From Sphagnum compactum (Eukaryota), in NCBI GenBank assembly GCA_965153455.1, contig OZ234493.1, forward strand, positions 28,386,213 through 28,450,212: 64,000 nucleotides of DNA, written 5' to 3'. The notes under the pieces are model-generated. The model saw nothing but the letters and a program-made list of their open reading frames with translations. It had not been told where the DNA came from and made no database searches. Made by a program: the position numbers and the translations under genes. Below are positions 3,969 through 39,969 of this stretch, piece after piece (position 1 is the first letter of the stretch; each line of letters starts with the position of its first letter).

Positions 3969-4281
3969 TGTTAACAAATAGGAGATCTACTCAAGTGCAA
4001 ACATAAAATTTTATTGAAAAGAAACTATAACACGATGCTCACAACACAAAACACAACATCAAGAACTCCTCAAGGTTCTTGTCACAAGAAATACACAAAT
4101 TTGTGTAATGAAGAAAAGAGAGCCAAACCATCAACACCAAGGTATTTAACTACAAAACCACACCACAAATAACCAAACTAAAATAAGTAAAGAAAGTAGT
4201 TCAACCTTGTGAAAGTAACCTAGTTACTTTCTTACTCTAGTAACTAAAGAAACCTAACTAGTTGAGCTTGAATTCTCAACA
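3969..4281 (-). repeat. 3' LTR of copia element
   Basis: Reads TGTTAAC...CTCAACA on +. Matches 9794-10106 with no differences seen by eye. The pol stop codon (4254) lies inside it. Confidence 0.95.
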
Positions 4282-7200
4282 CTCCCCCTCAAGCTCAAAT
4301 CCACTTCTAGTACACCAAACATTTTTCGAAACTTCTTTAGCTTGTCTGTACCTAAAGCCTTTGTGAAAATGTCAACAACTTGATCTTCGGTACTGACATG
4401 AATAAGGTCAATTTCTTTTGCTAGAACTTTTTCTCTAATAAAGTGGTAGTGCACCTCAATGTGCTTTGTCCTAGCATGATAGACCGGGTTGTTAGCAAGT
4501 AGTATGCTACTAATGTTATCACAATAGATGACAACAGGAGCATCCACTGACGGTCCCAAATCTGAAAGTAGTTTTTGTAACCAAATTACTTCACACGCAG
4601 CAATTGCTGCACCTCTGTATTCTGCCTCCGTGCTTGATAATGCAACTGTTGGTTGTTTCTTACTGCTCCAACTAACAGCACCACTCCCAAAAGAAAACAT
4701 GAAACCACTAGTTGATCTTCTATCTGAAACATTGCCAGCCCAATCAGCACCCGTGTATCCATGTACTTGTAACTCGCTCTTGGCTTCATAGAAAATTCCA
4801 CAATGTAAAGTATGTTTTATGTACCTCAATATGCGCCTCACTGCATCCAAATGTGGCTTTCGTGGTGTTTGCATGAATTGACTCACCACTCCAACTGCAT
4901 AACTCAAATCTGGCCTTGTGATGGTCATGTAAATCAAACTCCCCACTATGCGTCTGTACATAGTGGTATCCTCCACGAGGTCTCCTTCATCTGCACTCAA
5001 CTTCACATTTTGCTCCAATGGAATTAAAATGGGTTTACAACCCGTCATCCCATATTCGGACAATTTGTTCAAGGCATATTGCCTTTGTAATAACCATATC
5101 CCTTTAGGGGATTGGATTACCTCAATGCCGAGGAAGTAACGCAACTCTCCCAAATCCTTCATTTCAAACTTTTGCTTCAAAAGCTTCTTCAAATCAGAGA
5201 TGTCTGCATCACTATCTCCTGTGATAATCAAGTCATCAACATAGATGACTATGACTACAATCCCATGATCTGTCTTTTTCACATATAGTGAAAAATCTGC
5301 ATTGGATGTTTGAAATCCACTTGTGACAAGATACTGACCTATCTTGTCTGACCAAGCTCTAGGTGCTTGCTTCAAGCCATACAAAGCTTTCTTCAACCTA
5401 CAAACCAAATTAGGATGTGTTTGGTCCACATAACCTAGTGGTTGTTCCATGTACACTTCTTCCTGTAAATCTCCATGAAGAAAAGCATTCTTTACATCCA
5501 TTTGATGTAAAGACCATCCTTTTGCTGCTGCCATAGCAATGATTGCTCTTACAGTTGTCATTTTGGCAACTAGACTATAGGTCTCCTCATAGTCTATGCC
5601 ATACGTTTGGGCATAACCTTTGGCAACCAATCTTGCTTTGTATCTGCTCATAGATCCATCTGCATTGTGTTTGACTTTGTACACCCATTTGCACCCAATT
5701 GCTTTCTTGTCTTTTGGTAAAGCTACCAATTCCCAAGTAGCATTCGCACCCAAAGCCGCCATCTCTTCATCCATGGCATTGTCCCACTTAGGATTTCCAA
5801 CCGCTTGTTCAAAACAAGTGGGTTCAACCTCTTGTATAACTCTCACCATGTATGCGTAATGATGAGCTACAAAGCCATCATATGTGAGTCTTTGTACAGG
5901 GTACTTGACTCGTGTGGATCTTCGTACTCCAATGTTGTTGTCAGGTGTTTTCAAAGCTTTCTTGATCATCCGAGCTCCAGGAGTAGTAATTGAGGTGATT
6001 CTTGATTCTTCACCCTCACTCTTCTCTGACTCACTTGATTCACCATCTACATGAAAATTTCTAGATGATGTTTGTGAACTACCATGTACCATGTTTGAAG
6101 ATCTCAATCTTCCTTTCCATGGAGTGCTATTAGACCCACTAATTGAAGACTCTTGTGGTCCACTAATTAATTGTGATTCTTGTTCCACATTTGATGAAAC
6201 ATCACCATTTCTAGCTTCTTCATCTTCTGCTACCTTCAATGGTGAGTACCAACTAGCCATCTCATCAAACACAACATCTCTACTCACTTGCAACTTCCGA
6301 GTGGAAGGGCTAAAACATCTATATCCCTTTTGTTCTGAGGAGTATCCAATGAAGATACATTTCTTAGCTTTTAGGTCTAGTTTTGATCTCTTCTCATCAG
6401 GAACATGCACGTATGCAATGCAACCAAACACTCTGAGGTGTGAAACATCGGGTTTCTTGCCTGTGAATTTTTCTTCAGGTGTCATGCCATGAACTGCCGC
6501 TGTGGGTGTTCGATTCATGATGTAGACTGCAGTTGCTACCGCTTCAGCCCAAAAGTAATTTGGCAAATTCTTCTCATTCAACATGGCACGTGCTATTTCT
6601 GCAATGTGCCTGTTTTTCCTTTCAGCAACTCCATTCTGCTGTGGGGAATAACTACATGAGTACTTCCTTTGAATTCCATGCTCCTTCAAGTACTCACTGA
6701 ATTCATTTGAAAAATACTTTCCCCCTCCATCGGACCTTAAGCACTTGATGCTCACACCTTTCTCCTTCTCCACCATTGCTTTGAAATTCAAAAAATGTTG
6801 AAACACTTCACCTTTGTGTTTCATGAAGTAGACCCACACCTTCCTTGTGTGGTCATCAATGAAACTCACATAGTACTTGCATCCTCCAATGGATTCTGTC
6901 TTCGTGGTCCACACATCTGAGTGGATCATTTCCAAAGGTTTGGAACTTACATGAGTTGTTTGAGCTGGGAAAGGATGCTTAGCTTGCTTCCCCAATTGGC
7001 ATGCTTCACAAACCTCTGACATCACCTCTTCTGCTCCAAATTTGGGAAGACCTCCAACAAGTTTTTGTTTCTCCATGAGCTTAAGACGTTGGAGATTAAC
7101 ATGGCCAACTCGCTTGTGCCAAATTCCAATGTCTCCAGCTCCTTTTCCATGTGTGAATAACATGGAATTCACCTCAGGCATGTTCACATCTAAGGTGAAC

Positions 7201-8557
7201 ATTCGTCCATTCCTTTCCCCTTTTGCAATCAATTTGCCTTGGTTCTTCATGTCTTCCACAAAACATCCATTTGGGTTGAATGTCACCTGTAAACCTTGTT
7301 CCACCATTTGGCCTACAGAGACCAAATTTTTTGTTATGGTTGGAACATGAAGTACATCTTTCAGGTACTTTGTTTGCCCATCTTCCATGAACAATGGCAC
7401 CTTGCCAATTTGTGTGATGGGATGTGTAGTGTCATCACCAGTTTCCACAAACCCTGGTGTCTTCAAATCTTTTGCGTCTCTAAACCATTCTCCATGGCTA
7501 GTCATGTGGTTTGAAGCTCCAGAGTCCACATACCAGACATTGTTGTCTGATACACCTCCTATCATTGAATTTGCCATGTGTTGCATCACAAACAGTTGCT
7601 CATCACCTTGATTGCTTGTTGATGCATAATTCCCTTGTTGCAGCTTTCCATTTCGTGCATCATGCTCCCTTTGATAACAGTTCTTTGCCATGTGCCTAGG
7701 TTTCCCACAGTAATAGCAATTTGAATCGCTATTTGGTTGTTGACCTCGATGACTTCCACCACGACCTCCACGACTTCCTCGACTTCCTTGACTTCCTCTT
7801 CCTCCAAAGTTTCCTCGTCCACCTCCATGAGCTTGACCTTCATGTTGATGATGTCCACCATGCGAGCTTCCGTGTCGACCTCGAAATGAGCTTTTACTAC
7901 CTCTACCTCTACCTCTATTGGTATTTGAGTAGAAATCACTTTCTTGTGATCCTCCATTGGAAGAAGTACCAACAATTCTCATATCTTCACTTATAAGTAG
8001 TGTTATTAAGTCTTGGAAGTTGGGAAATGTTTCCCGAACTGCAATTGAGGTACGGAACTGACTATAGTCTTTTCCAAGTCCATTTAAGGTCATGGCCACT
8101 AAATCTTCATCATCTACAGGGGCTCCTATAGATGCAAGAGCATCTGCAAGGTTTTTCACCTTAGTAGAATAGTCATTGATGTTCATCTTGTTTTTCTGTA
8201 GATATGCAACTCTTGCTTGAGCTGCATTTTTCGGGCTTGTGTATTGGTGCTGTACATCTTCACCAATGTATCCCAAGCTTGCTTAGGTGATTTTGCATCT
8301 TGAATATGCACAATCATGGAATCAAACACACTCACAGAAAGCCAATACAAGACTTTCCTTGCTTTTTCATGCCAAGTTTTATTGGCTTGAATTTGTTGTT
8401 GTGTGGGGTTTTCTAGGAGAGGAGGTTCTTTTTCATCACTAGTTATGAATTCCCAATAGCCTTTCCCCATCAAGAAATTCATAATCCTAAATTTCCACAC
8501 TTGGAAATTGTTCTTGTCTAGTTTCTCAATTGCAATTTGAGAAAGACCGTCCGCCAT
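4254..8557 (-). pseudogene. Copia gag-pol polyprotein with a frameshift near 8203 and an RNase H Asp-to-Gly change
   Basis: ORF 8183-8557 (KLDKNNFQVWKFRI...KQELH) continues in another frame into ORF 4254-8276 (LQKNKMNINDY...). Motifs: decayed CCHC knuckle, PR WYVDSGAS, GAG-pre-integrase WHKRVGH..CEAC, INT HSDVW/SDGG/NGVAER, RT YVDD, and RH GYTGADWAG (normally GYxDADWAG). Confidence 0.93.
4282..4290 (-). promoter_or_regulatory. Polypurine tract of copia element
   Basis: GAGGGGGAG on the minus strand directly abuts the 3' LTR. Confidence 0.85.
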
Positions 8558-8969
8558 CTCTCAAGGCACTACTCAATGTCTTCTTGGGGTTTCAAAATGA
8601 TTTTAATTCCTTCCTTGGATTTCTAGGGTTAGGGTTAGGGTTTTCCTTCCTTAGGTTTCTAGGATTAGGGTTAGGGTTAGGGCTGAACAAGATAGACCTT
8701 GCATATGTATGTATGTCTTGAGTATTATACGAAATTCTATACTATACATAGGCTTTACGTATAGGTACGTATCTCGTATAATATTTCGTATGGTATTAAG
8801 TACATGATTACATACCACACTTTTGTACGAAGGTCTTGATAATGTATTTGCGCTTCCCAATCTTCAAACTCCTTCCTTCAAGTTCTCCCAAGTTGTATTT
8901 GCTCCACTTCAACACTTTGCTTTGGTGTCTTCTCAAAACAAACTTTTGTCACAGCAACTTTGCAAAGCT

Positions 8970-9573
8970 CCTCCACTCACATATGACCTTGGATCGTTCT
9001 GAAATTTTGGTGAAACATAAAAAGCTATGTCTACTATCATCTCTCAAAATTTCAGCTCATTTAATCTCATAAAATGAGAGATCTTGCTACTTCCTTGAAG
9101 TCACCTCAAACTGGGACCTGAACACAAAATGACTTACAACTCACTTTCAGCAACTCCAAAATCCTTGAGATTTTGAGAGACACATAAGATATATGTCTTC
9201 TATATCTGGTCAAAATTTCAGCTCTATTGATGATGACTACAAAGAGATATCACTTTCAAAAGAAACTGACTTCAAAATTGAGACTGAAACTTTAGATGCT
9301 TAGATCTCTCTCAATACAAATTCAAATGAGATGAAATTTCTCTCACACATATATTCCTATATGATCTATAAGATCCCAAAGCTGCAGATCCAAAAGAACT
9401 CAAACAAAGGAGATATGACCAAAAAACCAGATCTGATATAGAATCTTCAAAAGCTCATAACTCTCACAAAACAAATCCTTTTCACTTGAAATTTTGAGAA
9501 TAGAAGCGTCTTATAGTCTTCTATAACCTCTCCAAGTTTCACTCCAAGATCTTTTCACAGTAGCTCTAGATCT
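8970..9573. repeat. Four-copy array of a ~115-bp spaced palindromic motif in the copia leader
   Basis: TGA(A/G)ATTT at 9000, 9166, 9332 and 9487 is each matched by an inverted (A/C)AATTTCA-like half-site ending 54 bp later (9054, 9220, 9386, 9541). CTAT sits at a constant offset. Confidence 0.75.
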
Positions 9574-9780
9574 AGCTTTAAAGATCTGATTTTCACAACT
9601 CTTGATATGTGGATCTCCTCTCACCTCTTTTCTTTTCTTTTCTTTCTCTTCACTTCTTTCCTTTCCCCATTTCTCTTTTGCACTTGACAAACTCCTATGA
9701 TATTACTAGAGACTCTCAAGCTCTAGTTCTAGAGACATTCTAGCTCTAGGTCTCTTTCAACCTTCTCACCAAACAACCTA

Positions 9781-9793
9781 AGCTCTGATACCA
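9781..9793 (-). promoter_or_regulatory. Primer-binding site (tRNA-iMet)
   Basis: TGGTATCAGAGCT on the minus strand immediately follows the 5' LTR. Confidence 0.92.
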
Positions 9794-10106
9794 TGTTAAC
9801 AAATAGGAGATCTACTCAAGTGCAAACATAAAATTTTATTGAAAAGAAACTATAACACGATGCTCACAACACAAAACACAACATCAAGAACTCCTCAAGG
9901 TTCTTGTCACAAGAAATACACAAATTTGTGTAATGAAGAAAAGAGAGCCAAACCATCAACACCAAGGTATTTAACTACAAAACCACACCACAAATAACCA
10001 AACTAAAATAAGTAAAGAAAGTAGTTCAACCTTGTGAAAGTAACCTAGTTACTTTCTTACTCTAGTAACTAAAGAAACCTAACTAGTTGAGCTTGAATTC
10101 TCAACA
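9794..10106 (-). repeat. 5' LTR of copia element
   Basis: 313-bp copy of 3969-4281, followed on the minus strand by the PBS. Confidence 0.95.
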
Positions 10107-13100
10107 ACTCTTGCACTATGAATCAACCTTAAATAGTCCCCTAAATAACCACTAAATACCCTTGAAACTAGCGAATCGTTAGCTAACCTTTTAAGCAGGC
10201 TTTGTTTAATCCTTTACCTAACCTTTAGGTATCCCATAACCTAAGGTAAGCCCACATGTAGCCATAAATAAAATACGAGAGATTTAAAAAAAACTCAAGT
10301 CATCTTTTTCATGTTATTTTCCTTTAATGTATTTCCATCTTGCATTTTGATTGTCATCCTTTAGTTCTAGTGAAACCCAAGGTTCTACTTCAAGGTTTTA
10401 CTAACTTTGCAAATAATTTTATTCTAATTGACATGCATAGAAATTTTGAAAAATTTTAATCAACACAAAGAAATAATTAACTCTAAGAATTACTCTGCTA
10501 ATTTTATAATTTGGACAAGATCTACTATATTAGAAAGATTGATTTGGGAAATATGAGATGTTGCCAATATACACATTTAAATATCTAACTTGCATAATTT
10601 AAACAAACCAAGGAAAAACAAGTAATGATTACTAATAACCATTTGATGATCCACCATTCAAATATTGCTGATTTTGAAAATTAGATATTATTTGATTTAT
10701 GTGATTTAAAACAAGGACCAATGATGTGCAACATTAGAAAATAAGTAAATCTGAATGTTATTAATAAATTATAATTATAGACAGTGAAACAAGTTTAGAA
10801 TTACAAATTTGTGTTGTGGATAAATTGACTTCATGATCAAGTGTGGATTATGTTTAAATAAAAATTATGCGCAATTTGAAAATTTGCAAAAGTTGGATTC
10901 AAAATTTGTTGATAATCAATTAGTGGATAAATCTACTAACAACCAGTTGTTAAGAATGTAATTAACGTTCTTAATAATTGTTCTATTAACAAGAGATGTC
11001 ATGTTCATTATAGTGACATTATGACAACATGTCCATTGTAATATCATTTGCTTGAATTTCCCCATTTGGCATTAGGTTACAACACTACAAGTTATGACTT
11101 TTTTATGGATAACTTTAACGTGTGGGCAAATAAAGACATATATATATATTTCTAGTTCATCCAAATCAATAAATCCTATTCATATTTTTAAAAAAAAGTA
11201 ATGTGAACATGGTTTTTTCTTTCAATTTTGTGGTGTTGACAAAAATTTCCCAAATTTTAACAAATTTTTGTCGAATTCACATTAAAAACTAAAGTTTTGA
11301 AAACAAATTTCCAATTTTTTTGTTGTCACAATGCAAAATTTTGCCAAAGGAAAAATGTTGGATGTGAATGAATGTTATCTATAGTGACAACGTCATCAAA
11401 TGGTATTGTGTAATGTAATGAAACATAATTACTGATAACAACATACCAAAAATTCTTACTATGCACATAAAACAAGTTCAAACTTCAAACCATGCTAAAC
11501 AAACTTTTGAAGAATACAAATCTGGTTTAGTAGCATTTTTAACCCAAACAAGGTTTCTACATACTCAACAAGATGGGGAATGTCATTTTAAACAACAAAT
11601 TGGGGGGTAGACAACGATACCCAATGTTATTGATAAAAATATTAACCATGAAAAACATAGAAGCTTACCTTATTCTGTACATTCAAAGATTCTTCACATT
11701 ATTTGATCAATCACAAAACCATTATAGTTTAAGGTTTGTTCATACTTTGATTTCCTCATTTAACTAATTTCTTTTCTTTTGAATGTATTCAACTCTTAGT
11801 ATAAAGTCGTTTCATCATGTACACACACAAGAGTTTTCAAATGAATCATCCAATCTAAGCCACCTTGTGCCCCTCCCACCCACCTTACAACTTGAAAGTT
11901 ACGATTGTTGCACAACAATTAACCAAATGAAAGGACTATACTTCATTGAAAGGGCAAACACTAACCAATAACAATGAGTTAAATATGGCATTGGGTTTGA
12001 CACAATTATCATACAATATAGTATAATGCCCAACGAAAAATCAAAAATTCATAAATTATACCTACACAATGATCAATGCTTGAAATATATATTTTTAATG
12101 TTATTTTCAAAGGAAAAAAACTAATGCAATGGTTGGAATCCCCCTTTACAACCCAAAGTCTCGAGTTTGAACATTTTTCCGAATTATCTTTTTCATCTAC
12201 AAACGAAATGGATGCAAATAAATTGCCCTTGTGTAAATTTTTGAAATTAGTTGCCCAAGAACAATTGTTTTGAAAAGAACCATGTTCCTCGTGGAGCAAG
12301 GGTTTAAGTTGCCTTAGGGAACAACCATGTTCTTGAAGGAACAAGGGCTTGAGTTGCCTTAGGGAACAACCGTATTCTTGAGGGAGAAAGGGGTTTAAGT
12401 TGCTCCCCAGGGCAACTTAAACTCCTTTTCCACAGGGGGACATGATTGTTTATTGAGGTGATTTAAACCCTTGATTCCCCAAAACAACATGGTTGTTCCC
12501 TAGGGGTCACCATGTGCCTAGGGGAACATGGGATTAACTTCCCCAAAGGACAAGAAAAGTTCCCCAAAAAGACAATTTTCATGAATAGGAAAAATTCCCT
12601 AGGAAAAGGGCAACTTCCTTAAGGAAAGGCCCAAGTTCCCTAGGGAAACATTTGTTCCAAATAATTTTGCAATTGTAATCATTTCATGTTCATTTTTATA
12701 TAAGCTTGCAACCTATCATTGGAAATATTTCAAAGAGAAATACAACTATGTGGTTGGAAACACTTCAATCAAAATTCATTCGAAAAAGTTATGATCACAC
12801 AAAGTTTCGAACACATTTGTTCTATGGGGAACATGTTTGTTTTCCCGAGCAATTTAAGCCCTTGTTCCCTAGGGAGAAAGTTGCCTAAATTGCCCTTGGG
12901 AGCAACCATGTTCCCCCGGGAGCAAATGTGTCCAACATTTTATGCGATTGTAACTTTTTCATATGAATTCCAATTGAAGTGTTTCCAAACTACAACATTG
13001 TAACTCTCCTTGAGGCCTTTCTAATTAGAGTTCACAAGCCTATACAAAAAAGAGCATGAGATGATTATGGTTGCAAAACAATTCGAAGCATATGTTTCTT

Positions 13101-13791
13101 CAAGGAGCTTGGGCCCTTCCTCAGGGAAAGTTCATTGTTCCTTGGGAAAGTTGCATTTTTCCTTGGGAATTTTTTCTTATTCATTCTGCTGAGAGTAGTA
13201 GTGTTCGCAATCGCTGAACAGCAGTAACAACAACCTTGTGCCAAGCATAAACGCCAGCAAGGATAGTTATAAGTTCTTGGTTTTGACTTCTGAGGCCTTT
13301 TTTTTTTTGGAAGGGAGGGATGTAAAAGTAGATGGTGAAAAAAGTAAATTCTCTCTTTCTGGTCTCTTTTTCTCTTCTCTTTTCTTCTGTACTTTAAACC
13401 CTAAACCTCTTTTCTCCTGTTCTCTTTTCTTTCTCTTCTCTTCCTTGAACCTTAAACCTCATCTCTTCTCTTCTCCAAAACTCTTATCTTATCTTCTTCT
13501 TCTCTTCTTTAAACCCTAAACCTGCTTTCATCTCTTCTCTTTCATTTCTTTAAACTGTAAAGCATTGCCTGGATTTTTCCCTTTGTATTTTCAGCTCACT
13601 TACCTGCCTGAAGAAACCTGTTTTCAACAATGCACCAGCGAGGCTGTATTGGGATCTTCTGACCACAGGCCTTTCTCCTATACCAAATTTCTAAATTTTT
13701 TAATGGTTGAAACCCATTTTTTTTTACTTCTCAAGTCCTTTTTAAAAAAGATAGACATTGGTTTAGGGTTTAAGATTTGAAGAACTCCGTG

Positions 13792-14600
13792 ATGGCACTT
13801 GATGCCGCACCGCTGCTGTGTCCTTTCACTGTAACGTCGGACATTTTCACGCTGAAGAAGGACACTGCCAAGACGCATTGCAACAACGCCGGGCTCAACA
13901 TTCCAGACAATGCACCCCTGGCGGTCTACCGGGCAACCCTGGCCGGGCACTAGCTAGTCATGGGCTTCAAGACCGACAACTCACCTATTGACGCGCTGCT
14001 GTCCAAGATGGAGGCGGCCATCGAGAACATTGCGTCTCTCACGACCGCTGGTAACCTTACGGTCAACCAGCTGATGGAGTGCGAGGCGGCTGCGGCTGTC
14101 CCAGCCAAGGCTGCTTTTGCGGAGGAGCCCAAGTGGACCACAGTGATGGCCAAGAACGTGCGCTAGGTGGTCAGCCAGGCTTTGGAGACCCTAGCCGACG
14201 CGCCCAAACAGGACGAGCGCAAGTTCAACCTGCGCTTCACAGGCTTCAAGGCCAAGGAAGGCGAGACCGAGAAGGAGCTGGTGTAAAGGTTCAACAGAGA
14301 GCTGTTGTAAGGGCAAATGAGGCTGTGCGCCAAGGTTGTCGCCGCCACACGGCAACGGCCTATGACCGTGCAAACCTCCACCTTGGTGGCGAGCGTGCGC
14401 CCTAGTGCAATGCTGCTCAAATTCGCAACGAATGAGGACCGTTAGGCCGCGTTGTGAGGGCGTAAAGGCCTGGCGAGGACCAAGCTAGGCCTAGACGAAG
14501 ACCTCACGCCCACGCAATAGGCGTTCAAGTTGGAGATGTGGTCGTTGTTCAAGGAGGCCAAGGCAACAACCAAACACGCCTTCTGACGCGCAATCGAGTT
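13792..14600 (+). pseudogene. LINE ORF1 remnant (RRM/CTD-type nucleic-acid-binding protein)
   Basis: One reading frame from ATG 13792 with several stops of the C>T/G>A type. Reads ERKFNLRFTGFKAKEGETEKEL...RPSAMLLKF...GLARTKLGLDEDLTP...KEAK, which fits the LINE ORF1 pattern NL.I.G..E...RP.LVKF...L....I.EDLT. Confidence 0.7.
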
Positions 14601-14629
14601 CCAAGTACTTTGGAAAGCCAAGTACTTTG

Positions 14630-15300
14630 GTGCAATGCGCACAACATACAAGTGGGAGTTCAGATGGCTAAACAAGTCGCGCTACAACTAGTGCAGCCGG
14701 TTGGTGCTAAATCTACGACAGGAGGCCTGATCAACCAGGAGGCTGGGGCCCCAGCCCCTCCAGGTTTCCCCCACACAATATTGAGTGTACAAAGGGTGAA
14801 GGATAATATGTGTCATTGAAAAGCTCTTTACCAACCGTGAGATTGGGACCAGCGTGCAGACAAGATACTTGCGCTTCAAGGGTATGTCGTACGAGAGCAA
14901 AAACTACTTGTGTGACATCAGCTATGTTCAGCTGTGGAAAGTTCTGGCCCGGTTTCGATGTGGCAACATGCAGCTTGAGGTAGTGTTAGATGCGTGGAAG
15001 GGCGTGCCATACGCCCTTCCACTTTATCGAGGTTGCGATTTCGGGAAGGTTGAGGATGAAGAACATTTGCTTCTTGTTTGTCCAAATACACAAAAAGTTA
15101 GGGAACGTTTTTGTTCGGCCCTGCCCCTCACCCACACTAGCACTCTTGCTGAGCTCATGCAGACTACGAACACGGTCGCCCTAGCCAAGTTTGTGGCATG
15201 TTGCCAATACCAGAGGACAATTTGTCCTCCACGATCTACCTTTCATCTAATGGACTCTTTGGTCCCAAACGGACGTAAAATTGTAAACAGTAAACAATAA
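14630..15300 (+). pseudogene. LINE ORF2 C-terminal remnant (post-RT Cys/His domain)
   Basis: LARFRCGNMQLEVV..W...P......C..GKVEDEEHLLLVCP....VR is the C-terminal motif of RTEX/L2-type ORF2. No endonuclease or RT core is seen. Confidence 0.75.
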
Positions 15301-15890
15301 ACATTCTAGAAGTTTTTTTTCAGGGTATTTCATTTGTTCCCTAGGGAACTTTTTTACTCCTTTGCAACTTCATTTTCCTCCATGGAAAACTTACATTGTT
15401 CCTTAAGGCAACTTGCTTGGGACTAACATTTTGTCTCTTTTTTTTCGAGGAAATTCTTTCCTAAAGGCAATTAACTTTTAAAAATTATTTAAATGTTTTA
15501 TATATTTTTTCATCCATTTCATTTGTTAACAAAAAAAATTGAAAAAAGGATTAAACTCTAGACATTTGGGTTGAAAGAACGATTCTAACTACTACATCAC
15601 ATGTTTTTTCTTCGAAATTATTGTGTAAGAAAAATATTTATAATATTAATCATTGTGTGGGTACAGTGAAAAAAAATCCAATTTGTTTTTTCATGTTGGG
15701 CATTGTACTACAAATGCGTCAAACATGGTGCCCCATTTAACTTGTTGCTACATTTAGTGTTTGCCCATTAGGAATGACTCTTTCATTTGTCCTATTTATG
15801 ACATATATATATATATAGCTCTCTCTATTCATGACCTTGTGTATACATGACAATAATCTCATTCACAATTCATGGTCTTTTTGGTTGTAG

Positions 15891-16641
15891 TGTGACCGGA
15901 AAGGGAGTGACTGAACAGTTGGTCTCTGATTATCTCTGTGGTGTGAATGCCGATTTCATTTTGAGGGTATAAGGGGTTAAGCCTGCCGTCAACTTTCTTA
16001 ATGAATGACGGCGGGGTTTATTAATTTTGGGACAGGAGGTTAGTGACGGTGTGCATGGAATGCATGGGGAGATCTCTCTTTGGGGGTGTGTGATATGAAT
16101 GCAGGAAGAAGGCGGCGCGAATGATGGTGAGGAGAGGAGCTGCATTAATGAGCGAAAGTGGAGGGACTGACGGTGGCTGATGATACTGTTGAAGGAGGAA
16201 GCGGGAAAGGAGGAAGGGGAAGAAAAGTAGAGCTCGTTTGATAGGAGGCAGATAGACAGAAAGCACTGGAGCTTGGGGGATAGCTAGTTGCTGATCTCTT
16301 CCGCTACGTTAGTAACTAGAGGATGGCCAGCTCCATGATCTAGTGGGTATAGGACTGATCAAGGATCGATGTTGTAAGAAGGAAAATTTGAGAAGGTGGT
16401 CTGAGTTGTAGAGATGCACGTAGAAGTTATGTCTGTAGGAGTACTGGGAGTGGGTGTGGGGAGCAGTTGATGTGTGCCCCTATTTGAGAAGTAGCAGAGC
16501 TGGAAGAAGAGGAGTTGTGGACTTCAATTAGGACTGTTGTAATCCTGTCCACTTAACAGGAGGATACTCATTCACATTCTGACATGAGTGAACTCTACAG
16601 AGGAGTCGAGTTGTTGTTTTGACCCTTCCTTTTTGGTATCA
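15891..16641 (+). repeat. 5' LTR of gypsy element
   Basis: Starts TGTGACC. About 21 differences from the 3' LTR were counted by eye, essentially all transitions. Its 3' end runs into the PBS. Confidence 0.9.
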
Positions 16642-16646
16642 GAGCT
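16634..16646 (+). promoter_or_regulatory. Primer-binding site (tRNA-iMet) of gypsy element
   Basis: TGGTATCAGAGCT. Confidence 0.88.
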
Positions 16647-16699
16647 AGTTGCTTCTGTAGGAATTGTGGATGTTTAGATATAATGATAATTGAAGTGTC

Positions 16700-17366
16700 A
16701 TGTCTTCGTCTAATGCAGATGAGGGTGGTGTAGAAGAGTTGACACAGGAGATTCGTGAACAACAGATCGTCAATAGGTTCGATTTTCTGACTGGGCAAAA
16801 TGGACCACAGAGAGGAGCTGTGATCCTGCGTTTTCTGGGTTTTGGAGTAGTAACTCTTGTAGGAATAGACCCAGATGAAGCCCAAGTTGGAGACATAGCA
16901 GTAGAAGTAGCTCATAGTGGTTTTTACATTCGCGCTCAAGTTTGGTTGAAGGTGAGAAATGGAGCAAGGGGGTGGGCGTCAACCTCAGTGTTATAGACAC
17001 CATACTACTTCACTTCCTACCTTGCGTAGGGTAACGCCTTTATTTGCTGAAAGGCAGCGTAGTGTACCTAGGATAGGAGACATTTGGATTCCCAAGATTG
17101 CTGCGTCTCCTAACCATTTTGTCAGATTATACATTCCTGGTGTGGAAGACTTGTTTCAGGTGGGAGATCGACTACTCAGAGTGGAACACAGTGGATCAAG
17201 ATCCCGCCTCATAAGCTGGAGGATATGGCGCAATCAAGAGGAAGGATGGCAGTTCCAACAAGAGTCCACAGATGAGCAAAGTTTCTCTACTCTTCCATCT
17301 AATTTCGTACCTTTGAGACCAGTAGCAGAAGGAGATCAGTCTGAATTCACAGATCGGATCGGATAA
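16700..17366 (+). pseudogene. Extra ORF of unknown function upstream of gag (about 220 aa, one frameshift)
   Basis: ORFs 16700-16996 and 16959-17366 overlap, are protein-like in composition and can be joined by a single frameshift between 16956 and 16993. Confidence 0.55.
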
Positions 17367-17479
17367 CATTTGTTCTTCGCAAAACTCAAATGCGAACAAA
17401 ATAGAATGCAAAACTGGACAGATCTGTGGTTACCTGATTGTGGTCTAACGAACCGTGTGTTGTAGGAAGTGTTGCAATT

Positions 17480-20400
17480 CTGGTTTGCAACTAGCACCAG
17501 CCGATTGGGCTGAGTTGAGAACTCTGATAGTACAGAAGTATGGAGATGTGGATGCTGATGACATCAGGATGAAGCTCGATGCCATCAAACAAGAACCCAA
17601 GGAGAGAGTTCAAAAATATTTTGAACGTCTCGACAAACTGTTTCAGAGGGGCCGGCTACAAGACGCCGAGTAGAAGAGAAGGTTCCTGGCCAAATTAAGG
17701 CCAGAAATTCGAAAATTGTGTGTGGTGAGAACGTTTGCAGACATTGAGGAGTTAGTTGGTGCTGCAACGGAAGTTGAGAGAGTGCTGGGCGAGCTTGGGG
17801 AGACTCCGTACGAACCTCTGAGAGAGGAACAAGAGGAGGAGTCCTCGAAAACCATGATGGAGAGACAGGTCACTGCACTAAACAACACCCTGATCAACTT
17901 CTTCAAGGGGACTGTGCATAATCCAGAGGCATCATCGTCTTCCACTGCGTTTGGAGGATGCCAAATCTGCAAAGGGGGGGACCATTTGGCCACCACCTGT
18001 CCAAGGTTAAATGAAGCACGGCCAAAATGTGCCAAGTGCAGTATGCCTCATAGGATAGAGAATTGTGGAATAAAATGTACCTTCTGCTGAGGACAGATGT
18101 TGGAAGAAGCCCAAAGATGGGAAATCACAAATTGGAGCAGCAAACTTCTTGGAGGTGTTGCTGGATGATGAAGCAGCGACCATGCAACAACTTGATAAGC
18201 TATGTGGGAATGAGAATCTTTTCTCTTACACCTGAGTGCCTAGGAGGAGGATGCCTGTTGAAGTGGCACCAGCTGGTACTATACCGGCACCTGAAGCTGA
18301 AGGGGAAGGCACATGAGTGAGTCGGGAGACCTCTGTTAGGTCGAAGATTCTCTCACACTTTATTAAGGGAAAGATTTCCCTTACACCCATGGAAACAGTA
18401 CTGATGATACCAGGAGAATTAGAACATCTTGAGAGTCTGGTGAAATTGGCTAGAAGGAAGAAGGATGCAGAAGCTGTAAATGATCAGGTGTCTAGGGATT
18501 CAACAGCTCCTGCAATTAGGCCAATTTGCATTAGCAAAACACATAGAAGCAAGACACTCCACTTGCCGGTGGAGATAAATAGCTATGTGGTGGAAGGGCT
18601 TGTGGACATTGGAGCGTCCATGTCTGTCATGGCTGCTGCAGTGGTTAGAGAGTTGGGAATGATGCATTTGGTTACTGGATCCGAGACCTATAAAACCGCA
18701 TCAAGAGTTGTGACTCAGGCTCTAGGTCGAATTGATGCGGTACCGGTCAAGATAGGAGGCATACGGTGTGCCATGACCTTCATGGTAGTGGACACAGACA
18801 GTTATGATGTGCTCCTTGGACTGGACTTTTTGATGAAAATTGGAGTAGTGGTGGATGTGGAACGGGGTTTGATATAAGTGAGACACGGCCCCGGAACCAA
18901 TGTGGAGGTGTTGCCATTAACGATGGTGAATTTGTTGCAGAGGATGAATTCAGAAGCTCTGATGCAAGAGTCTACAACCATCTGGAAAAACACATGCACC
19001 AATGATGATTCTGACTGGATACCAGATCAGGATCGCGCGATCATGACCAAGGAAGATGCTGCGTCTACCTCGGATTCAGACACTGGTACTGATGGTAGCG
19101 AGCATTGTGATTCATTGAAACAAATTGATTGTGAAGATGAGTTTAGAGATGCTGAATTGGAGGAGTTGGTGAGGTCAGAAGGGCCGCAAAAAATGTTGCA
19201 ACTGATATTACAGGAACAGGTTGATGGGTTCATGGATGAAGAAATCACAGATACGGATGATTACGCAGATTGGATCAGATGGGTGTCTGATGCAGAGCAA
19301 AGCAGACGAGCCATGCATGAATCCACACCTGATGCAGCTGTTCCACTTTTGTTGCAACAACCCAGCCGAAGAGATGCTTCCTCAATTCCGGCGTTGCTGC
19401 AGACTGTCCAGACGAAAGATGGCAACTCTGATCGCAACACCACTAAGCAGTTGGGATCATCCAGCCATGAGGAAAGGGACACTAGATGGAGTGAGATCTG
19501 TCAGCGAATCAGGATTGACAACAGCTTGAATGAGGGAGGACATCAACAACTCTGGAAAGTTCTGGAGCGGTATCAAGACGTTTTTGCTTGGAACGAGGGT
19601 GAATTAGGTTGCTGCACTATTGGTGAACATTTTGTGGATACGCAAGGATTCCCACCTTGCAAGACATCTCCTGGTCGATTATCCTACTGGGAAGAGGCAG
19701 AAGTGAAGAGGCAAATCGATGTCCTGGTAGATTTGGGCAAGATGAGGCCTAGTAGCTCTGAGTATGCATGTCGGGTAACTCTACCAGTGAAGAAGGATGG
19801 GAGCAGGCGTTTCTGTGGGGACTACCGACACTCAACGCACAAACACGTCGGGATTCATTTCCAATGCCACTCGTGGAGGATGTGATTAATCAGCTGGGGA
19901 GCTCGGCATGGTTCACTGCCTTAGACTTGCAGTCTGGCTTCTAGCAAATTCAAATGGCTCCAGAAGACATGAAGAAGACAGCTTTGATTACCAAGACCGG
20001 ATTGTATGACTGGACAGTCATGCCATTTGGCCTAAAGAATGCAACGAGTACGTTTACCAGAACTATGTCAGAGGTCTTTAAGGACTTGGGTAACAAATTC
20101 CTGAAGGTGTTCGTTGATGACCTCAATGTGCACAGCGTAAGTTGGGGGGAACATCTTCAACATCTGGATGCGGTTCTGTGCAAACTCAGGGAAGTAATCT
20201 CAAACTGAACCCAAACAAGTGTTGCTTTGCTACAAAAAGCATTACATTTCTGGGCCATGTCGTTAGTGAGAATGGCACCAGACCAGACCCTGGCAAGATT
20301 GAGGTAGTTCTGCATTTTCCACAACCAAAGACGGTCACAAACGTCAGGTCGTTCTTGGGTCTGACGGGGTATTACCGTAATTGTGTCCAAGGCTATGCGC

Positions 20401-22658
20401 GACTGGCAGCTCCACTATTTGAGTTGACAAAAAGGGATGTTAATTTTGTGTGGGATCTGGGCTGTCAGCAGGCATTCCAGGCGTTAAAGGCAACGCTGGT
20501 TGACGCACCTGTACTCACACGACCTGATTTCAGGAGAACATTTTGTCTGGACGTTGACTGGTCACCCAAGGGTGTTGGAGCCATACTGTCACAGAAGGAA
20601 GGAAAATTTGAGAAGGTGGTGGCGTATGCCAGTAAGAGCTTAACAGAAGCACAGAAGAAGTTCCACCCCATGGAAGGGGAATGCTACGCACTGATCTGGG
20701 GCATCATGCATTTCAGGTAATACTTGCACAGGACTCATTTCATTCTGCGCACAGATCACAAAACGCTGGAATGGTTAGCAACCGTGTCGGATGCGCATGG
20801 AAGGAGGGGCAGGTGGGTTGACATGTTGCAGGATTTCAGTTTCAAGATAATCCACCGACCAGGACTCAGACATACAAATGTCGATGCTTTGAGTAGGAAT
20901 CCAGTTGGACTAGCCACGGATGATGATGACTTTAGAGAAGAGATCCCAGACATTGGAAATACACAAACTAACGCACCTGAGGGAGAAGAGGAGATTCGCT
21001 TTGTTCAAATGGGCAAAGAGACGGAATGGCTTGGTGTTAGGAGAAAGGATAGGGAGTTTGTACAACACCATGCGTGTTGTTTTGGCATCAACCACTGGAC
21101 TTATGCCAGCAGCCAACAACTGTTTGTGGTTGACGTTGTATCAGAGGAGGACCAGCCCAAAGAGCTTGTCCCATGTGAGGTAAGAATTACAAGAGGGGGT
21201 GAGCCTATGCAGGACAATGATGTGAGAGTGGTGATGAAGAGGAGGGGACCCCAGTACTATAACAAGCAACAGCAATTGGAGCTAGTGTTGGCAGCTCAAC
21301 AGCTGTTCGAATCAGGAGAGCATGACTTAGTTTCTACAGGTTCTGATGAGGAGGATGAGTGTGGAGCGGGCACAAGACACCTAGACATATGGGAGGAGGT
21401 AACCTGCATGGATTTACTGCGAGGAGGCATGCTCCCAGACACTGTTGACCCAGTGGAATCTAAGAGAGCAAAGCAGAGAATATTGAACTACCACTAGCAG
21501 GACCAGTCACTTTATTTCAAGGGGTTACTAGTGCCAAGACCAGAAGACCGCATGGGATTGGTAGTCCGAATGCACAAGGACCTAGGGCATTTTGGGGAAG
21601 AAAGGACTCTGGCTGAGATATGTAGGAGGTACTTTTGGCATAATCGAATAGAGGATGTCAAGACTGTGGTGAAGGTATGCCAACAGTGTCAGATGGTGAA
21701 AAGGATGGGGAGTATACGCTCTGAAGATGAAGAGTTGAAGAGTATACCCATTTGTGATCTGTTTCACAGAGTGGCTATGGACACTACAAGACCATTGCCT
21801 GAAACTAAGTCATGAAACAAATACATTCTGGTGGCCATCGACCACTATTCTAAATGGTGCGAGGCAAAAGCAGTTGTTGATCATGGTGCTAAGACTGCGG
21901 CCAGGTTCCTAGAAGATGACATAATCTGCAGGTATGGAGTCCCCAAGTTTGTGCATACTGACAATGGTGGAGAATGGGCTGCAGAATTCAATGTGATGTG
22001 CAAGGACTACGAAATCCAACATCAGCACACTGAACCCCAGTGGCCTCAATGCAATGGGATGGCGGAGCACTTGATCAAGACTATCAAACACGACATCACC
22101 GTTCTTGCTGCAACACCAGAAAACGTGGAATGTTGGGACGAACATCTGGCCAAGATCTTGTTTGGGTATAGATGTGGGATACAGGCTACCACTAAGTTTT
22201 CACCCTTCATGATTTTAACTGGTCGCACACCTCATCTCAGGGCAGACAATTACCTGCACGCTCTGACTGCTGTGACTGATGATGGTGTTGATATTGAAGT
22301 TGCTGCAGCACAATTTCTACAGAAGGTGAAGCTGATAGCAAGCATCCACGAAAATGTCTTGCTCAATGTGGAACAAGCACAGAAGAAGCAAAGGAAGACC
22401 TATGAGGCCAGAAAAGGTAAGCAAACTTTTGAAGGACTGGTTGCAGGGGAGACTATGGTTAAGATGAAGAAACCAGGAAAGAAGAAAGCCTTGGCTGCAA
22501 ACTGGGAAGGTCCATACCAATTTGTTGGACATGTAGATGGGAAGGGGAACTTTGATTTTGAGGAAGGCAGCAGAATTTGCATCATCCAGGATGCTGATGG
22601 ACACCAGTGGGAAAGGTCTCGTAGGGATCTTCAGATCTATCACGTTCAACAAGATTGA
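17480..22658 (+). pseudogene. Gypsy gag-pol remnant
   Basis: Retrotrans_gag-like WAELRTLIVQKYG..IKQEPKERVQKY, CCHC knuckles (CQICKGGDHLATTC, CAKCSMPHRIENC), PR LVDIGAS, RT MPFGLKNA/FVDD, RH DWSPKGVGAIL/ECYA/TDHK, INT HHCC plus TDNG, and GPY/F WEGPY. Multiple stops and frameshifts; the gag N-terminus appears deleted. Confidence 0.92.
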
Positions 22659-22684
22659 ATGAAGCTGAGGGACTCAGCTTTTTT

Positions 22685-22697
22685 AGGAAGGGAGGGG
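22685..22697 (+). promoter_or_regulatory. Polypurine tract of gypsy element
   Basis: AGGAAGGGAGGGG lies 7 nt before the 3' LTR. Confidence 0.8.
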
Positions 22698-22704
22698 TGA
22701 CATA

Positions 22705-23455
22705 TGTGACCGGAAAGGGAGTGACCGAACAGTTGGTCTCTGACTATCTCTGTGGTGTGAATGCCGATTTCATTTTGAGGGTGTAAGGGGTTAAGCCTGC
22801 CGTCAACTTTCTTAACGAATGACGGCGGGGTTTATTAATTTTGGGACAGGAGGTTAGTGACGGTGTGCATGGAATGCATGGGGAGATCTCTCTTTGGGGG
22901 TGTGTGATATGAGTGCAGGAAGAAGGCGGCGCGAATGATGGTGAAGAGAGGAGTTGCATTAATGAGCAAAAGTGGAGGGACTGACGACGGCTGATGATAC
23001 TGTTGAAGGAGGAAGCGGGAAAGGAGGAAGGGGAAGAAAAGTAGAGCTCGTCTGATAGGAGGCAGATAGACAGAAAGCACTGGAGCTTGGGGGATAGCTA
23101 GTTGCTGATCTCTTCCGTTGCGTTAGTAACTAGAGGATGGCCAGCTCCATGATCTGGTGGGTATAAGACTGATCAAGGATCGATGCTGTAGGAAGGAAAA
23201 TTTGAGAAGGTGGTCTGAGTTGTAGAGATGCACGTAGAAGTTATGTCTGTAGGAGTACTGGGAGTGGGTGTGGGGAGCAGTTGATGTGTGCCCCTATTTG
23301 AGAAGTAGCAAAGCTGGAAGAAGAGGAGTTGTGGACTTCAATTAGGACTGCTGTAATCCTGTCCATTTAACAGGAGGATACTCATTCACATTCTAACATG
23401 AGTGAACTCTACAGAGGAGTCGAGTTGTTGTTTTGACCCTTCCTTTTTAGTGACA
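22705..23455 (+). repeat. 3' LTR of gypsy element
   Basis: TGTGAC...GTGACA, 751 bp, followed by the TSD GTAG. Confidence 0.92.
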
Positions 23456-28102: not shown

Positions 28103-28204
28103 CTGCAACCAAAAGAAGAAGACACACAGATACATAGAAATCATAAAAAGAAAACCATAAGGAAGGAAAAAATCATCCTCTAACTACTGCGGAAAAAGAA
28201 AAAA

Positions 28205-28712
28205 AACAAATCCCAGAAATCTCAGAAAGTCTCTTGCTACTGCAAAGTGTTCTCTTGTTGCTGCAAAGAAGGTCTCTTGTTGTTGCAAAGAATTCTCTGG
28301 GTGCTGCAAAGAATTCTCTTGTTGCAGCAAAACAAGTCTCTTGCTGCTGCAAAGAAATCTTAGAAATCTCTTGTTGTTGCAAAGAAAGCTTCTTGTTGCT
28401 GCAAAGAATTCTCTTGTTACTGCAAACAAAATTTCTTGCTGCTGCAAACAAAGTCTCTTGCTGCTGCAAACAAAGCCTCTTGCTGTTGCAAAGAAATCTC
28501 AGAAATCTCTTGCTGCTGCAAAGGAAGTCTCTTGTTGCTACAAACAAAATTTCTTGCTGCTGTAAACAAAGTCTCTTGCTGTTGCAAACAAATTCTTTTG
28601 CAGCTGCAAAGAATGCATCTACCTGCTGCAAAGAATTATCTTGTTGCTGAAAAGAAATCTCGGAAACTTCTTGCCGAAGCAAAGACATCATCTCTTGTTG
28701 TTGCTGCAAAGA
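28205..28712. repeat. Minisatellite, ~20-22-bp unit (TCTCTTGTTGCTGCAAAGAA)
   Basis: About 20 or more degenerate tandem copies. These explain the repetitive spurious ORFs in several frames. Confidence 0.9.
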
Positions 28713-28877
28713 GATTATTATAAACAAAAAGAAACACCGAAAACAGAGAACGAAAAAGAAAATGAAAAGAAAAAGACCCCGTCCTCTGTATAGTAAATCT
28801 TGGGGCCGGACAAATTTAGGGGAAGCTTCATTCGCACGGCTTCAAGGGAAGCTTCATTGTTCCTTTACTATAGATAA

Positions 28878-35170: not shown

Positions 35171-35727
35171 GTTAGAGTCTTCAGTTCTTTTTCCGTGGCA
35201 ATAATTCCGATCTGTTATATTGTTTTGTCGATTGAGCAAAATTCTTGGGGAACTGTACTGCAGAAAGCTCTGTCTCTGGGAAGCTGCAGCATTGAGCCTT
35301 GTTGTAAGTAAAGCGTCGGAGTCCCACAGCGCTTTGAATTCAGAGATTGATGAGTCCCTCACATAAGAACTGGTGTTATGCTTTTGTTCCAACGCTGAGT
35401 TCCTGCAGCAAAATTGCCATATCTCATGCTGCTCTCTATCAGAAGCTGCAGAAAGATATATATGGTTTCCATGTCAGTAGTTGGTACTAAGAGCCTTATA
35501 CTATTCTCTCTCCCATCTCCATGCTTGAAGACATGTTTGCTGTACAGACTGGTAAGCTTTATTGAGAGATATGATTGATTGATGCTTCCAAAAAGATAAA
35601 ATTAGGTATACGATGATTTGTAGGTGGCTGTTTTTGGCACCCCAGCCAAGCTGCTCTTGGCTTTCTAGCCCAAGCAACCCAAACATGAAGCTCCTGACGA
35701 AAGAGGGTGGATGTTGTCAAAATGCAG

Positions 35728-36876
35728 GTGAAATTGGCCATTAACACAGCATCCGTTTTGCCTTCCTCATGTGTGGGCTCATGGAGCTTTTCTGTAGATC
35801 CATGTGATGCATTAGGATCCCCACAGTTTACTTGTGGTATTGAGTGTTCACCCGCAATTGGAGGAGTGTCACGGGTGATTGGTCTTAACCTAGAGCCTGT
35901 TGGTTACCATGGAACACTATCACCATATGTTGGCAACCTCTCCGCGCTGCAGACAATCATCATTTCAGGGAATAATTTTGAGGGCTCTATTCCAGCAACG
36001 CTTGGCCAGCTGACTGATCTTCTCCAGCTAGATTTGTCATCCAATTCCTTCACAGGATTTCTGCCTGAATCTTTGGGCCTTCTCTCAAACCTAGGATATC
36101 TCTCTGTTGCCAACAACCTCTTGGAAGGCAACATTCCATTATCCTTCAACAACCTAATTGAAGTGACACGAATGTCTCTGGACCGGAATCAACTCAGTGG
36201 CCCTATCCCTATTCTGAGTGGAATGAGGAGCTTAACCTACATTGATGCGAGCTACAATAATCTGACTGGACATTTGCCTTGGGGTTACCCTCCAAGGCTC
36301 AATTACCTTGCTTTAGGGCAGAACCAGCTTGCAGGACGTCTTCCCCAACTTCTTGGAGACCTGACTTCCCTGGCAGTTTTGGATCTGCGGAGCAATCAGT
36401 TGTGGGGCAGCATAGAGGACTTCATTTTTGACCTTCCTAGCCTTCAACAGCTCAATTTGTCACATAACAATTTCAGTCAACTCAGCGTCACAAACCGTAC
36501 AGGTGCTAACAGCCAGGTTGTGTCAATTGACTTGAGCTCCAATATGCTACAGGGTCCATTACCTGACTTTCTGGGGTTCATGAAGATGCTCAATGTTCTT
36601 TCACTACAGTCAAACATGTTCACGGGTCCAATTCCTTATAATTATGCACTGAAGGCAGCAAATGCACTTCCTGCATCCAATCAGCTCCGGCAGCTCTACC
36701 TTGACAGCAATTTTTTGACAGGAGAGGTTCCTTCTCCCTTTCTGAGCATCTCTAATAACATCACTGCAAGTTTTGTCAACAATTGTCTAGAGAACTGTCC
36801 ACCAGTACTCTCTTTCTGTCAAGGTGGTGGTCAACGATCACCAAATGAGTGTCAAGCAATCCACCAAACTCCATAG
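35728..36876 (+). CDS. Secreted leucine-rich repeat protein, exon 2 (plant extracellular LRRs, no TM or kinase domain)
   Basis: TGCAG acceptor in frame. LRRNT SWSFSVDPC..FTCGIEC, about 10 LxxLxLxxNxLxGxIP repeats, and a Cys-rich cap NNCL..CP....C..QRS..EC. Resembles the Arabidopsis At5g66330-type LRR family (from memory). Confidence 0.92.
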   Translation: MKLAINTASVLPSSCVGSWSFSVDPCDALGSPQFTCGIECSPAIGGVSRVIGLNLEPVGYHGTLSPYVGNLSALQTIIISGNNFEGSIPATLGQLTDLLQLDLSSNSFTGFLPESLGLLSNLGYLSVANNLLEGNIPLSFNNLIEVTRMSLDRNQLSGPIPILSGMRSLTYIDASYNNLTGHLPWGYPPRLNYLALGQNQLAGRLPQLLGDLTSLAVLDLRSNQLWGSIEDFIFDLPSLQQLNLSHNNFSQLSVTNRTGANSQVVSIDLSSNMLQGPLPDFLGFMKMLNVLSLQSNMFTGPIPYNYALKAANALPASNQLRQLYLDSNFLTGEVPSPFLSISNNITASFVNNCLENCPPVLSFCQGGGQRSPNECQAIHQTP

Positions 36877-39204: not shown

Positions 39205-39453
39205 CTGCAAAAAGTGAATAGGTGCATCTCTTAGAACATTCAGTGTTCTCTAGACAGCTGTGAGACACACCTCCCATAAATGGCCATTCACAAGTTACAT
39301 GGCATCTGTGTTCAGAAGTAACCCAGACAAAAAGCAAGATTGTGAATGAAGATTTCAAACTAAATGGGCAACATTCCTGGTTTAAAAGATACAGATCAAA
39401 CATGATCATGGCATGAGCAATCCTCAAGAGCACCACAAGTCAAAGAAACCTAC

Positions 39454-39969
39454 CTTGGACGATCCTACATTGGCTGCATTGTAGCCCTCTGCCAAGTCTG
39501 CCAAGTTCAGTAACTCATCCACTCTCCAGCCAGAAGTAGCCTCTGTCAGAAACTCTGTGATGCTGCTTTTTCTCAAGGTTCCTGAGCCACTCTGAAGTCC
39601 TGTACTTAAAGATGTTCCCATCACTTCTCCCACCTTTGGTACAAAGCCTCCTTGATTTTTTGACTGAGGCATTGGGTGGTTCACAGGTGAGGAGGAAAGA
39701 GGAGGTTGAGCAGTGCTAGACAACCTGCCACTCATGATTGGATTCATCATACGACTGGTTTTGGAGGTAGGCAGACTGAATTGAGGAGTCTCTTCAGAAG
39801 CTGCATCAGGCTCCTCCTGCACAGTTAGAGCCTTCCAAGCAACTCGTATTCCTGGAATCAAAAACCGCTTATGCCTGGTAGAGAGAGAATTGGCCGAGTG
39901 TATTGACAAATCACAGTCCCGGCATAGGAGTGCTCTATCCTCCACACAGAAAAAAAACCCTGACTTTTC
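39454..39969 (-). CDS. B-box zinc-finger protein, exon 2
   Basis: B-box2 EKSGFFFCVEDRALLCRDCD.SIH......HKRFL plus SSITEFL....GWRVDELL. AG/GT splice sites, 516 nt, phase 0. Confidence 0.92.

What the first reader, a model, noticed from the sequence alone, without database searches (positions are those of the whole stretch)
8970..9573. Nucleosome-scale array of a spaced 115-bp palindromic motif in the copia leader
Seen: four units start at about 8970, 9136, 9302 and 9457 (periods 166, 166, 155 bp). They share almost no continuous identity but keep fixed-position half-sites: A(T/G/C)A(A/T)CTC at 0 (weak in unit 1), TGA(A/G)ATTT at +30, CTAT at +64, AAATTTCA-like ending at +84, and GAGAT(A/C)T ending at +114 (about +116 in unit 4). 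Conserved spacing and dyad symmetry without conserved intervening sequence is not what ordinary tandem duplication or an RNA hairpin would give. Inference: this is a DNA-level structural code, such as a nucleosome-wrapping/positioning signal or a multimeric protein-binding array, in the unusually long (~1.2 kb) leader between PBS and gag. It may control transcription or silencing of the element.
Basis: partly seen in the sequence, partly recalled or inferred. Interest (0 to 1): 0.78.

Follow-up and report, generated by a model that had tools for sequence, protein, structure and literature searches.

The report
Fixed-geometry DNA motif of eukaryotic transposons
A moss jumping gene carries four copies of a symmetric 115-base DNA pattern whose exact spacing also turns up in unrelated repeats from other organisms and was copied into a second kind of jumping gene, so it may be an overlooked signal for how these elements are wrapped on histones.

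Summary
The four units are real: starts 8970, 9136, 9302 and 9457, symmetry axis at +57, in the 1,226-bp leader of a young copia element, probably from a moss. They arose by old tandem duplication, but the geometry is not local. A pattern taken from them (TGAAATTT, 39 bases, AAATTTCA, 23 bases, RAGWTAT) put 51 of 102 dereplicated metagenome matches into that one spacing out of 81 allowed, with unrelated spacers. Prokaryote genomes were flat (3 of 84). Positions not in the pattern are also conserved and symmetric (A at -34, T at +34). Within the family, inherited changes spare the motif score, while private ones erode it. A Ty3/gypsy family captured the array once, re-amplified unit 3, and has at least 150 gag hits, of which only 5 were found with the old leader. 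Best reading: a host-read double-stranded DNA signal matching nucleosome anatomy (confidence 0.5). No chromatin data could be tested. Half-site bases are not better conserved than spacers within the family, and sister families replicate without the array. Ten literature searches found no description of the motif.

The parts
8970..9084 (.). Unit 1, dyad at 9027; left outer site weak
9136..9250 (.). Unit 2, dyad at 9193
9302..9416 (.). Unit 3, dyad at 9359; the unit amplified 1-11 times in the gypsy family
9457..9571 (.). Unit 4, dyad at 9514; right outer site weak, and cut off in the gypsy copies
8849..9550 (-). Span of the copia leader captured by a Ty3/gypsy family (42-bp distal piece plus the array)
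9782..9793 (-). Primer-binding site, TGGTATCAGAGC (initiator tRNA-Met type; label recalled)
9794..10106 (-). 5' LTR, 313 bp, identical to the 3' LTR
8204..8557 (-). gag N-terminal frame from the ATG at 8557; the frame is broken just downstream in this copy
4254..8282 (-). Rest of gag and pol in copia order (protease, integrase, reverse transcriptase)
4282..4290 (-). Polypurine tract
3969..4281 (-). 3' LTR

Best explanation
Each unit is a two-fold symmetric signal in double-stranded DNA, read by a conserved host particle, most likely the histone octamer. Inner sites lie 20-27 bp either side of the axis, a single A/T at 34 bp, and outer sites at 51-57 bp. SHOWN: the geometry, its spread across unrelated repeats, a flat spacing distribution in prokaryote genomes, a selection signal in replicating lineages, and one capture by a second retrotransposon superfamily. 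INFERRED: the axis is the nucleosome dyad, so each unit fixes one nucleosome and the 155-166-bp period lays a phased row just inside the promoter LTR. SPECULATIVE: the A/T block near superhelical location 2, where DDM1 and Snf2-type remodellers bind, changes remodelling and so silencing, which would give carriers a copy-number advantage. The array arose by old tandem duplication of a palindromic unit. It is an accessory, not a requirement for replication.
For: Metagenome scan: 51 of 102 dereplicated matches fall in the predicted (39,23) cell and 76 of 102 have arm gap 23; 26 of 55 BLAST-linked clusters include that cell. Prokaryote genomes give 3 of 84, and two of those are 781-bp and 289-bp contigs; viral contigs, with a similar pattern, show no peak there. 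In 28 unrelated sites (31% identity at free positions), A at -34 occurs in 25 and T at +34 in 22, and the unpatterned left arm sits at exactly -57 in 8, against 0-2 at 29 other offsets. A matrix from those 28 sites with pattern positions masked scores window units 1-3 in the top 0.01% and unit 4 in the top 0.5%. Private substitutions lower the matrix score by 1.04 on average (random expectation 1.19); lineage-shared ones lower it by 0.10 (218 against 69 changes, p=0.0006). A/T at free positions is highest at the histone-contact phosphate register listed for NCP147 (0.74 against 0.60, p=0.004, best of 11 shifts). Adjacent units in unrelated repeats are mostly 156-225 bp apart (9 of 13 intervals). 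Copia, gypsy and Helentron carriers share no DNA-binding protein that I know of (inference).
Against: No MNase, ChIP or reconstitution data were available. Free positions show no clear 10-bp A/T period (best 11.0 bp, p=0.09), and the A/T peaks are out of phase with the canonical WW rule if the axis is the dyad. The contact-register test was made after I saw the peaks, rests largely on -34, -12 and -3, and is not significant in the window units alone (p=0.14). Half-site and spacer positions take shared substitutions at the same rate (51:83 against 124:193, p=0.92). The 26 invariant columns match uniform decay (24.9 expected), and conservation is not mirror-correlated (p=0.23). Some families have a core gap of 42 or 35-37. 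A sister copia family and a few gypsy copies replicated without the array. The copy-number contrast is one event.
Confidence: 0.5

Rival explanations
1. The units dock another conserved, symmetric host complex on double-stranded DNA, such as an SMC or topoisomerase II complex, a remodeller dimer or an architectural protein, rather than positioning histones.
For: Discrete, base-specific sites with strict gaps look more like protein contacts than a diffuse bending code. There is no 10-bp period at free positions. The arm gap is stricter than the core gap.
Against: A 115-bp two-fold span, nucleosome-length periods and the contact register fit the octamer. I know no other pan-eukaryotic reader of this size.
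Confidence: 0.2
2. The motif has no reader. Imperfect palindromes promote their own copying through fold-back, cruciform or template-switch events, and hitch-hike in transposons.
For: Within-site mirror complementarity at free positions is 0.35 against 0.30 between sites in the 28 metagenome sites (p<0.0001). Unit number varies from 2 to 12 in gypsy copies. Array-less relatives are viable.
Against: Pairing would not fix base identity and exact gaps across unrelated families. The window units show no within-site excess (0.32 against 0.36). Inherited changes spare the score.
Confidence: 0.15
3. The array works in the RNA, as a packaging, dimerisation or translation signal in the leader.
For: It lies between the PBS and gag in both families. 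Unit 1 can fold as one long hairpin.
Against: Folding z-scores are -1.4, -0.3, +0.2 and -0.3. Rfam gave only one sub-threshold match, outside the array. The geometry also occurs in oyster satellite monomers, one of them the Helentron central repeat Cg170 (by eye).
Confidence: 0.08
4. It is a neutral relic of an ancient repeat that was captured and has since decayed; the cross-organism match reflects shared ancestry rather than function.
For: Spacer identity is above chance, and the number of invariant columns fits uniform decay.
Against: Free positions are at 31% identity among the 28 sites while the gaps stay exact. Private indels hit units freely but inherited ones rarely.
Confidence: 0.07

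Closest known systems
[quoted passage not shown]
   Same: The inner site TGAAATTT resembles the GRAAATTTYC decamer. The unit is two-fold symmetric and nucleosome-sized, and its A/T peaks match the listed contact phosphates.
   Different: Those are statistical 10-bp-periodic averages or selected artificial DNA. This is a discrete natural motif with few sites, exact gaps and no clear period at free positions.
Central tandem repeats of non-autonomous Helentrons and oyster satellites (Cg170, CgiSat; PMC7492417 passages and supplement rows, PMC8268682 supplement passages)
   Same: Short arrays of about 166-bp units inside mobile elements. By my count by eye, CgiSat01, 08, 09 and 48 carry the 23-bp arm gap, and CgiSat48 also the 39-bp core gap.
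   Different: They are in DNA transposons and animals. Cg170 has a shorter core (about 31-32, by eye). The passages I saw do not describe this motif.
Sirevirus LTR repeated motifs (PMC2829016, passages read)
   Same: Dyad-symmetric repeated boxes in the non-coding part of a copia lineage, proposed to be regulatory.
   Different: Those are short CGG-CCG boxes in CpG islands in the LTR. These are 115-bp, A/T-rich, CG-poor units (0.33 CG per 100 bp) in the leader.
Template-switch chimeras of LTR retrotransposons (PMC1950507, abstract read)
   Same: A plausible route for moving sequence between elements.
   Different: Here a non-coding cassette crossed from copia into gypsy, replaced most of the recipient's leader, and was then re-amplified.

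Membership tests
Ty1/copia LTR retrotransposon (host element) | Paired LTRs, PBS, PPT; integrase before reverse transcriptase | tested here: met
Ty1/copia LTR retrotransposon (host element) | Perfect 5-bp target-site duplication | tested here: not met
   Flanks differ; does not affect the classification
Nucleosome-positioning sequence | Positions a nucleosome in vitro or in vivo | not testable with these tools
   No chromatin runs among the 24 listed
Nucleosome-positioning sequence | About 10-bp periodic WW/SS signal | tested here: inconclusive
   Best period 11.0 bp, p=0.09; contact-register enrichment p=0.004, post hoc
Nucleosome-positioning sequence | Two-fold symmetry and nucleosome-length repeat | tested here: met
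Transposon-borne tandem repeat | Head-to-tail homologous units inside a mobile element, with variable copy number | tested here: met
Sirevirus repeated motif | CGG-CCG core, CpG island, located in the LTR | tested here: not met
Structured RNA element | Stable fold or Rfam match | tested here: not met
Structured RNA element | Covariation between mirrored positions | tested here: inconclusive
   Small excess in the 28 metagenome sites, none in the window units

The most novel reading that the evidence does not exclude
Unrelated transposons of plants and animals carry one base-precise nucleosome code (sites at 20-27, 34 and 51-57 bp from the dyad). It sets nucleosome register and hinders DDM1/LSH-type remodelling, it is traded between transposon superfamilies as an anti-silencing cassette, and it seeds nucleosome-length satellites.
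Probability: 0.25. Interest if true: 0.95.

Novelty: categorically new. Interest (0 to 1): 0.8.

Why it matters
Whether natural DNA carries a precise nucleosome-positioning code, and why many satellite monomers are nucleosome-length, are long-standing questions. This gives a concrete motif with exact coordinates, natural variants and array-less sister lineages as controls, so it can be tested at once by reconstitution, MNase mapping and repeat-library scans. It also records a non-coding cassette moving from a copia to a gypsy element.

Tried and rejected
Comparing the 30 closest copies (92-99% identical) was too shallow alone, so older copies and metagenome relatives were added. Half-site versus spacer substitution counts showed no difference (the CTAT/ATAG offsets there were off by one and were corrected, same result). 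Mirror correlation of conservation was not significant. Tandem Repeats Finder does not report the array. Two strict four-site patterns found nothing in viral contigs. The core-only pattern in the own genome gave 313 matches against 35 for the control, with mixed gaps and mostly low matrix scores. The AAGTTAT arm pattern gave 348 against 181 and was not tallied by gap. The covariance model R1 was not used. RNA reads were uninformative: 3 read pairs in one poly(A) run, apparently sense, and no joints; contigs from RNA libraries may be DNA. Small-share runs are labelled moss metagenome, and three were laid; the host is inferred, not identified. Earlier scan findings held nothing on this motif. 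A splice that removes the array was considered and has no support.

Full report
Observation. The region lies in a copia element on the minus strand: LTRs 3969-4281 and 9794-10106, 100% identical; copia domain order; PBS at 9782-9793; leader 1,226 bp. The genome is 382 Mb, and RNA runs that hold a small share of the stretch are labelled moss metagenome, so a moss host is likely but inferred. A symmetric matrix from any three ranks the fourth above all 63,858 other positions, and the best symmetry axis is +57. Units share 53-60 of 115 bases directly and 47-55 with each other's reverse complement. Half-sites are 72% identical and spacers 39%, against 28% by chance. Conservation comes in blocks (lag-1 autocorrelation 0.33, none of 5,000 simulations as high), but the 26 invariant columns equal what uniform decay gives, and conservation is not mirror-correlated. 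So the array is an old tandem duplication of a palindromic unit.

Family. At least 40 close copies exist. I fetched the leaders of 40 of 150 gag hits, chosen for lower identity. Fourteen had three or more units, mostly with the same periods. Fourteen were a sister family with a 272-287-bp leader and no units, one had a 411-bp leader, four had one unit, and seven had neither PBS nor unit. Two sister elements have long open frames and LTRs 96-98% identical, so the array is not needed for replication.

Constraint. In 51 aligned leaders (43 from this genome after dropping one near-duplicate, 8 from metagenome contigs), private indels fell 27 in units and 48 outside; shared indels fell 1 and 12 (p=0.054). 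The 44-copy set gave 19:36 and 0:9 (p=0.048). Counting substitutions in half-sites against spacers showed nothing (p=0.92, or 0.37 without C-to-T and G-to-A changes). Scoring them with a matrix from unrelated organisms did: private changes averaged -1.04 and shared ones -0.10 after polarising with old copies (p=0.0006); absolute effects of transversions gave p=0.036. Caveats: shared changes are not independent, and the matrix's strongest positions come from a pattern drawn from the window.

Capture by a gypsy element. A pattern search found the same units in the leader of an element with a Ty3-type gag, with at least 150 gag hits at 88-100% identity. Twenty copies picked by the array had 4-6 units. 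Of 20 picked from the gag list, 15 had 2-12 units, 4 had a different leader of about 1 kb without units, and 1 was deleted. L127 keeps units 1, 2, 3, 3 and 4 at 88-89% identity to the window; the others keep unit 4 and 1-11 copies of unit 3. The captured span is about 8849-9550. A search with the array-less leader found 5 copies among the 40 of 160 candidates scored. Gypsy cassettes form one branch (100/98) inside the copia diversity on a midpoint-rooted tree of 83 rows, and array-bearing gags form one branch against array-less ones. LTR identities overlap: 97.3 and 97.7% for two array-less copies (a third aligned only with gaps, a fourth not at all), and 95.1-99.3% for 13 of 16 array-bearing copies. 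Copia-to-gypsy transfer is the simplest reading. Template switching is a plausible route (PMC1950507, abstract only). The copy-number contrast is a single event and could be luck.

Spread of the geometry. I scanned for TGAAATTT, 35-43 bases, AAATTTCA, 19-27 bases, RAGWTAT; the window predicts (39,23). Metagenome contigs gave 130 matches, 102 after dereplication, with 51 at (39,23) and 76 at arm gap 23. Prokaryote genomes gave 120, 84 after dereplication, with 3 at (39,23). Two of those three are contigs of 781 and 289 bp; the third lies in a 2.6-Mb contig. Grouped by BLAST, 26 of 55 clusters include (39,23), one of them the moss family. Viral contigs showed no such peak with a similar pattern (58 loci). 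From 44 sites with enough flank I removed 3 family relatives and dereplicated to 28. These are 31% identical at free positions, yet show A at -34 in 25, T at +34 in 22, and the unpatterned left arm at exactly -57 in 8. With pattern positions masked, their matrix still picks out the window units. Other repeats in this genome carry the unit too: 13 of 65 listed non-family arm matches have gap 23 (p=0.001; tallied by hand from the first 100 of 130 rows), with periods of 173-189 bp in one family. Taxonomy of most metagenome hits is not established. Among 88 flanking ORFs and a tblastn check, LTR-retrotransposon domains lie beside five non-family loci and a rhodopsin-type receptor beside one; two loci with other protein families (one clearly bacterial) are off the cell. 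By eye, oyster satellites CgiSat01, 08, 09 and 48 have the 23-bp arm gap, and CgiSat48 also the 39-bp core gap (supplements of PMC8268682 and PMC7492417).

Mechanism. RNA structure is unlikely, though metagenome sites show a small excess of self-complementarity. A reader shared by copia, gypsy and Helentron-type repeats should be a host factor, symmetric and over 100 bp wide; the histone octamer fits best (inference). PMC3401446 section 5 lists histone-bound phosphates at -55/-54, -44/-43, -34/-33, -24/-23, -13/-12 and -3/-2. Free positions at that register are A/T-rich (0.74 against 0.60, p=0.004, best of 11 shifts), but I tested this after seeing the peaks, the other-strand contacts show nothing (p=0.25), and the window units alone are not significant. 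There is no clear 10-bp period, and the phase is that of an anti-pattern as described in PMC7004410. DDM1 binds at superhelical location -2 (PMC11239853, passages), where the AAATTT block would sit; any effect on silencing is speculation.

Comparison and novelty. Transposon-borne tandem arrays, palindromic boxes in copia LTRs and statistical nucleosome patterns are all known. I found no description of this fixed-gap motif, or of a copia-to-gypsy leader capture, in ten full-text searches. The library lacks most subscription journals and repeat databases, so prior art is possible; I recall similar half-units in repeat libraries, which is memory and not a test.

Verdict. The geometry and its spread are well supported, constraint is moderately supported, and the nucleosome mechanism is plausible but untested (0.5). 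Interest 0.8.

Noticed in passing
window 11969-15750: Nested long inverted repeats (arms near 12059-12118 and 15604-15663; internal palindrome 12584-13159; 45-bp and 21-bp sub-repeats), probably a fold-back or non-autonomous DNA transposon.
   Followed up: no
window 15891-23451: A gypsy element with 747-bp LTRs, 97% identical, and interrupted pol frames.
   Followed up: no
window 8704-8814: A/T-rich imperfect hairpin in the copia leader, downstream of the array in element sense; it gives the strongest local dyad score.
   Followed up: no
window 8607-8678: Two 36-bp copies rich in TAGGGT (telomere-like) just before the gag start.
   Followed up: no
window 3969-10106: LTRs are identical, yet there is no perfect 5-bp target-site duplication and the gag frame is broken.
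   Followed up: partly
window 28204-28715: Array of 21-22-bp units with higher-order periods, open in two frames.
   Followed up: no
window 35698-36876 and 39424-40068: A leucine-rich-repeat frame and a weak B-box match.
   Followed up: no
L114-L115 (G000:C14, about 6.865 Mb): An array-bearing gypsy copy and an old array-bearing copia copy sit head to head, with their 5' LTRs about 275 bp apart.
   Followed up: partly
L121:1000 region and other gypsy copies: The Ty3-type family shows no obvious tRNA primer site next to its 5' LTR; priming mode not examined.
   Followed up: no
L498, L502, L506, L458: Another repeat family in this genome carries two motif units 173-189 bp apart, with no coding context found.
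   Followed up: partly
L432: A motif-like (39,23) site near the end of a 2.6-Mb bacterial MAG contig; chance, contamination or a real bacterial case.
   Followed up: no
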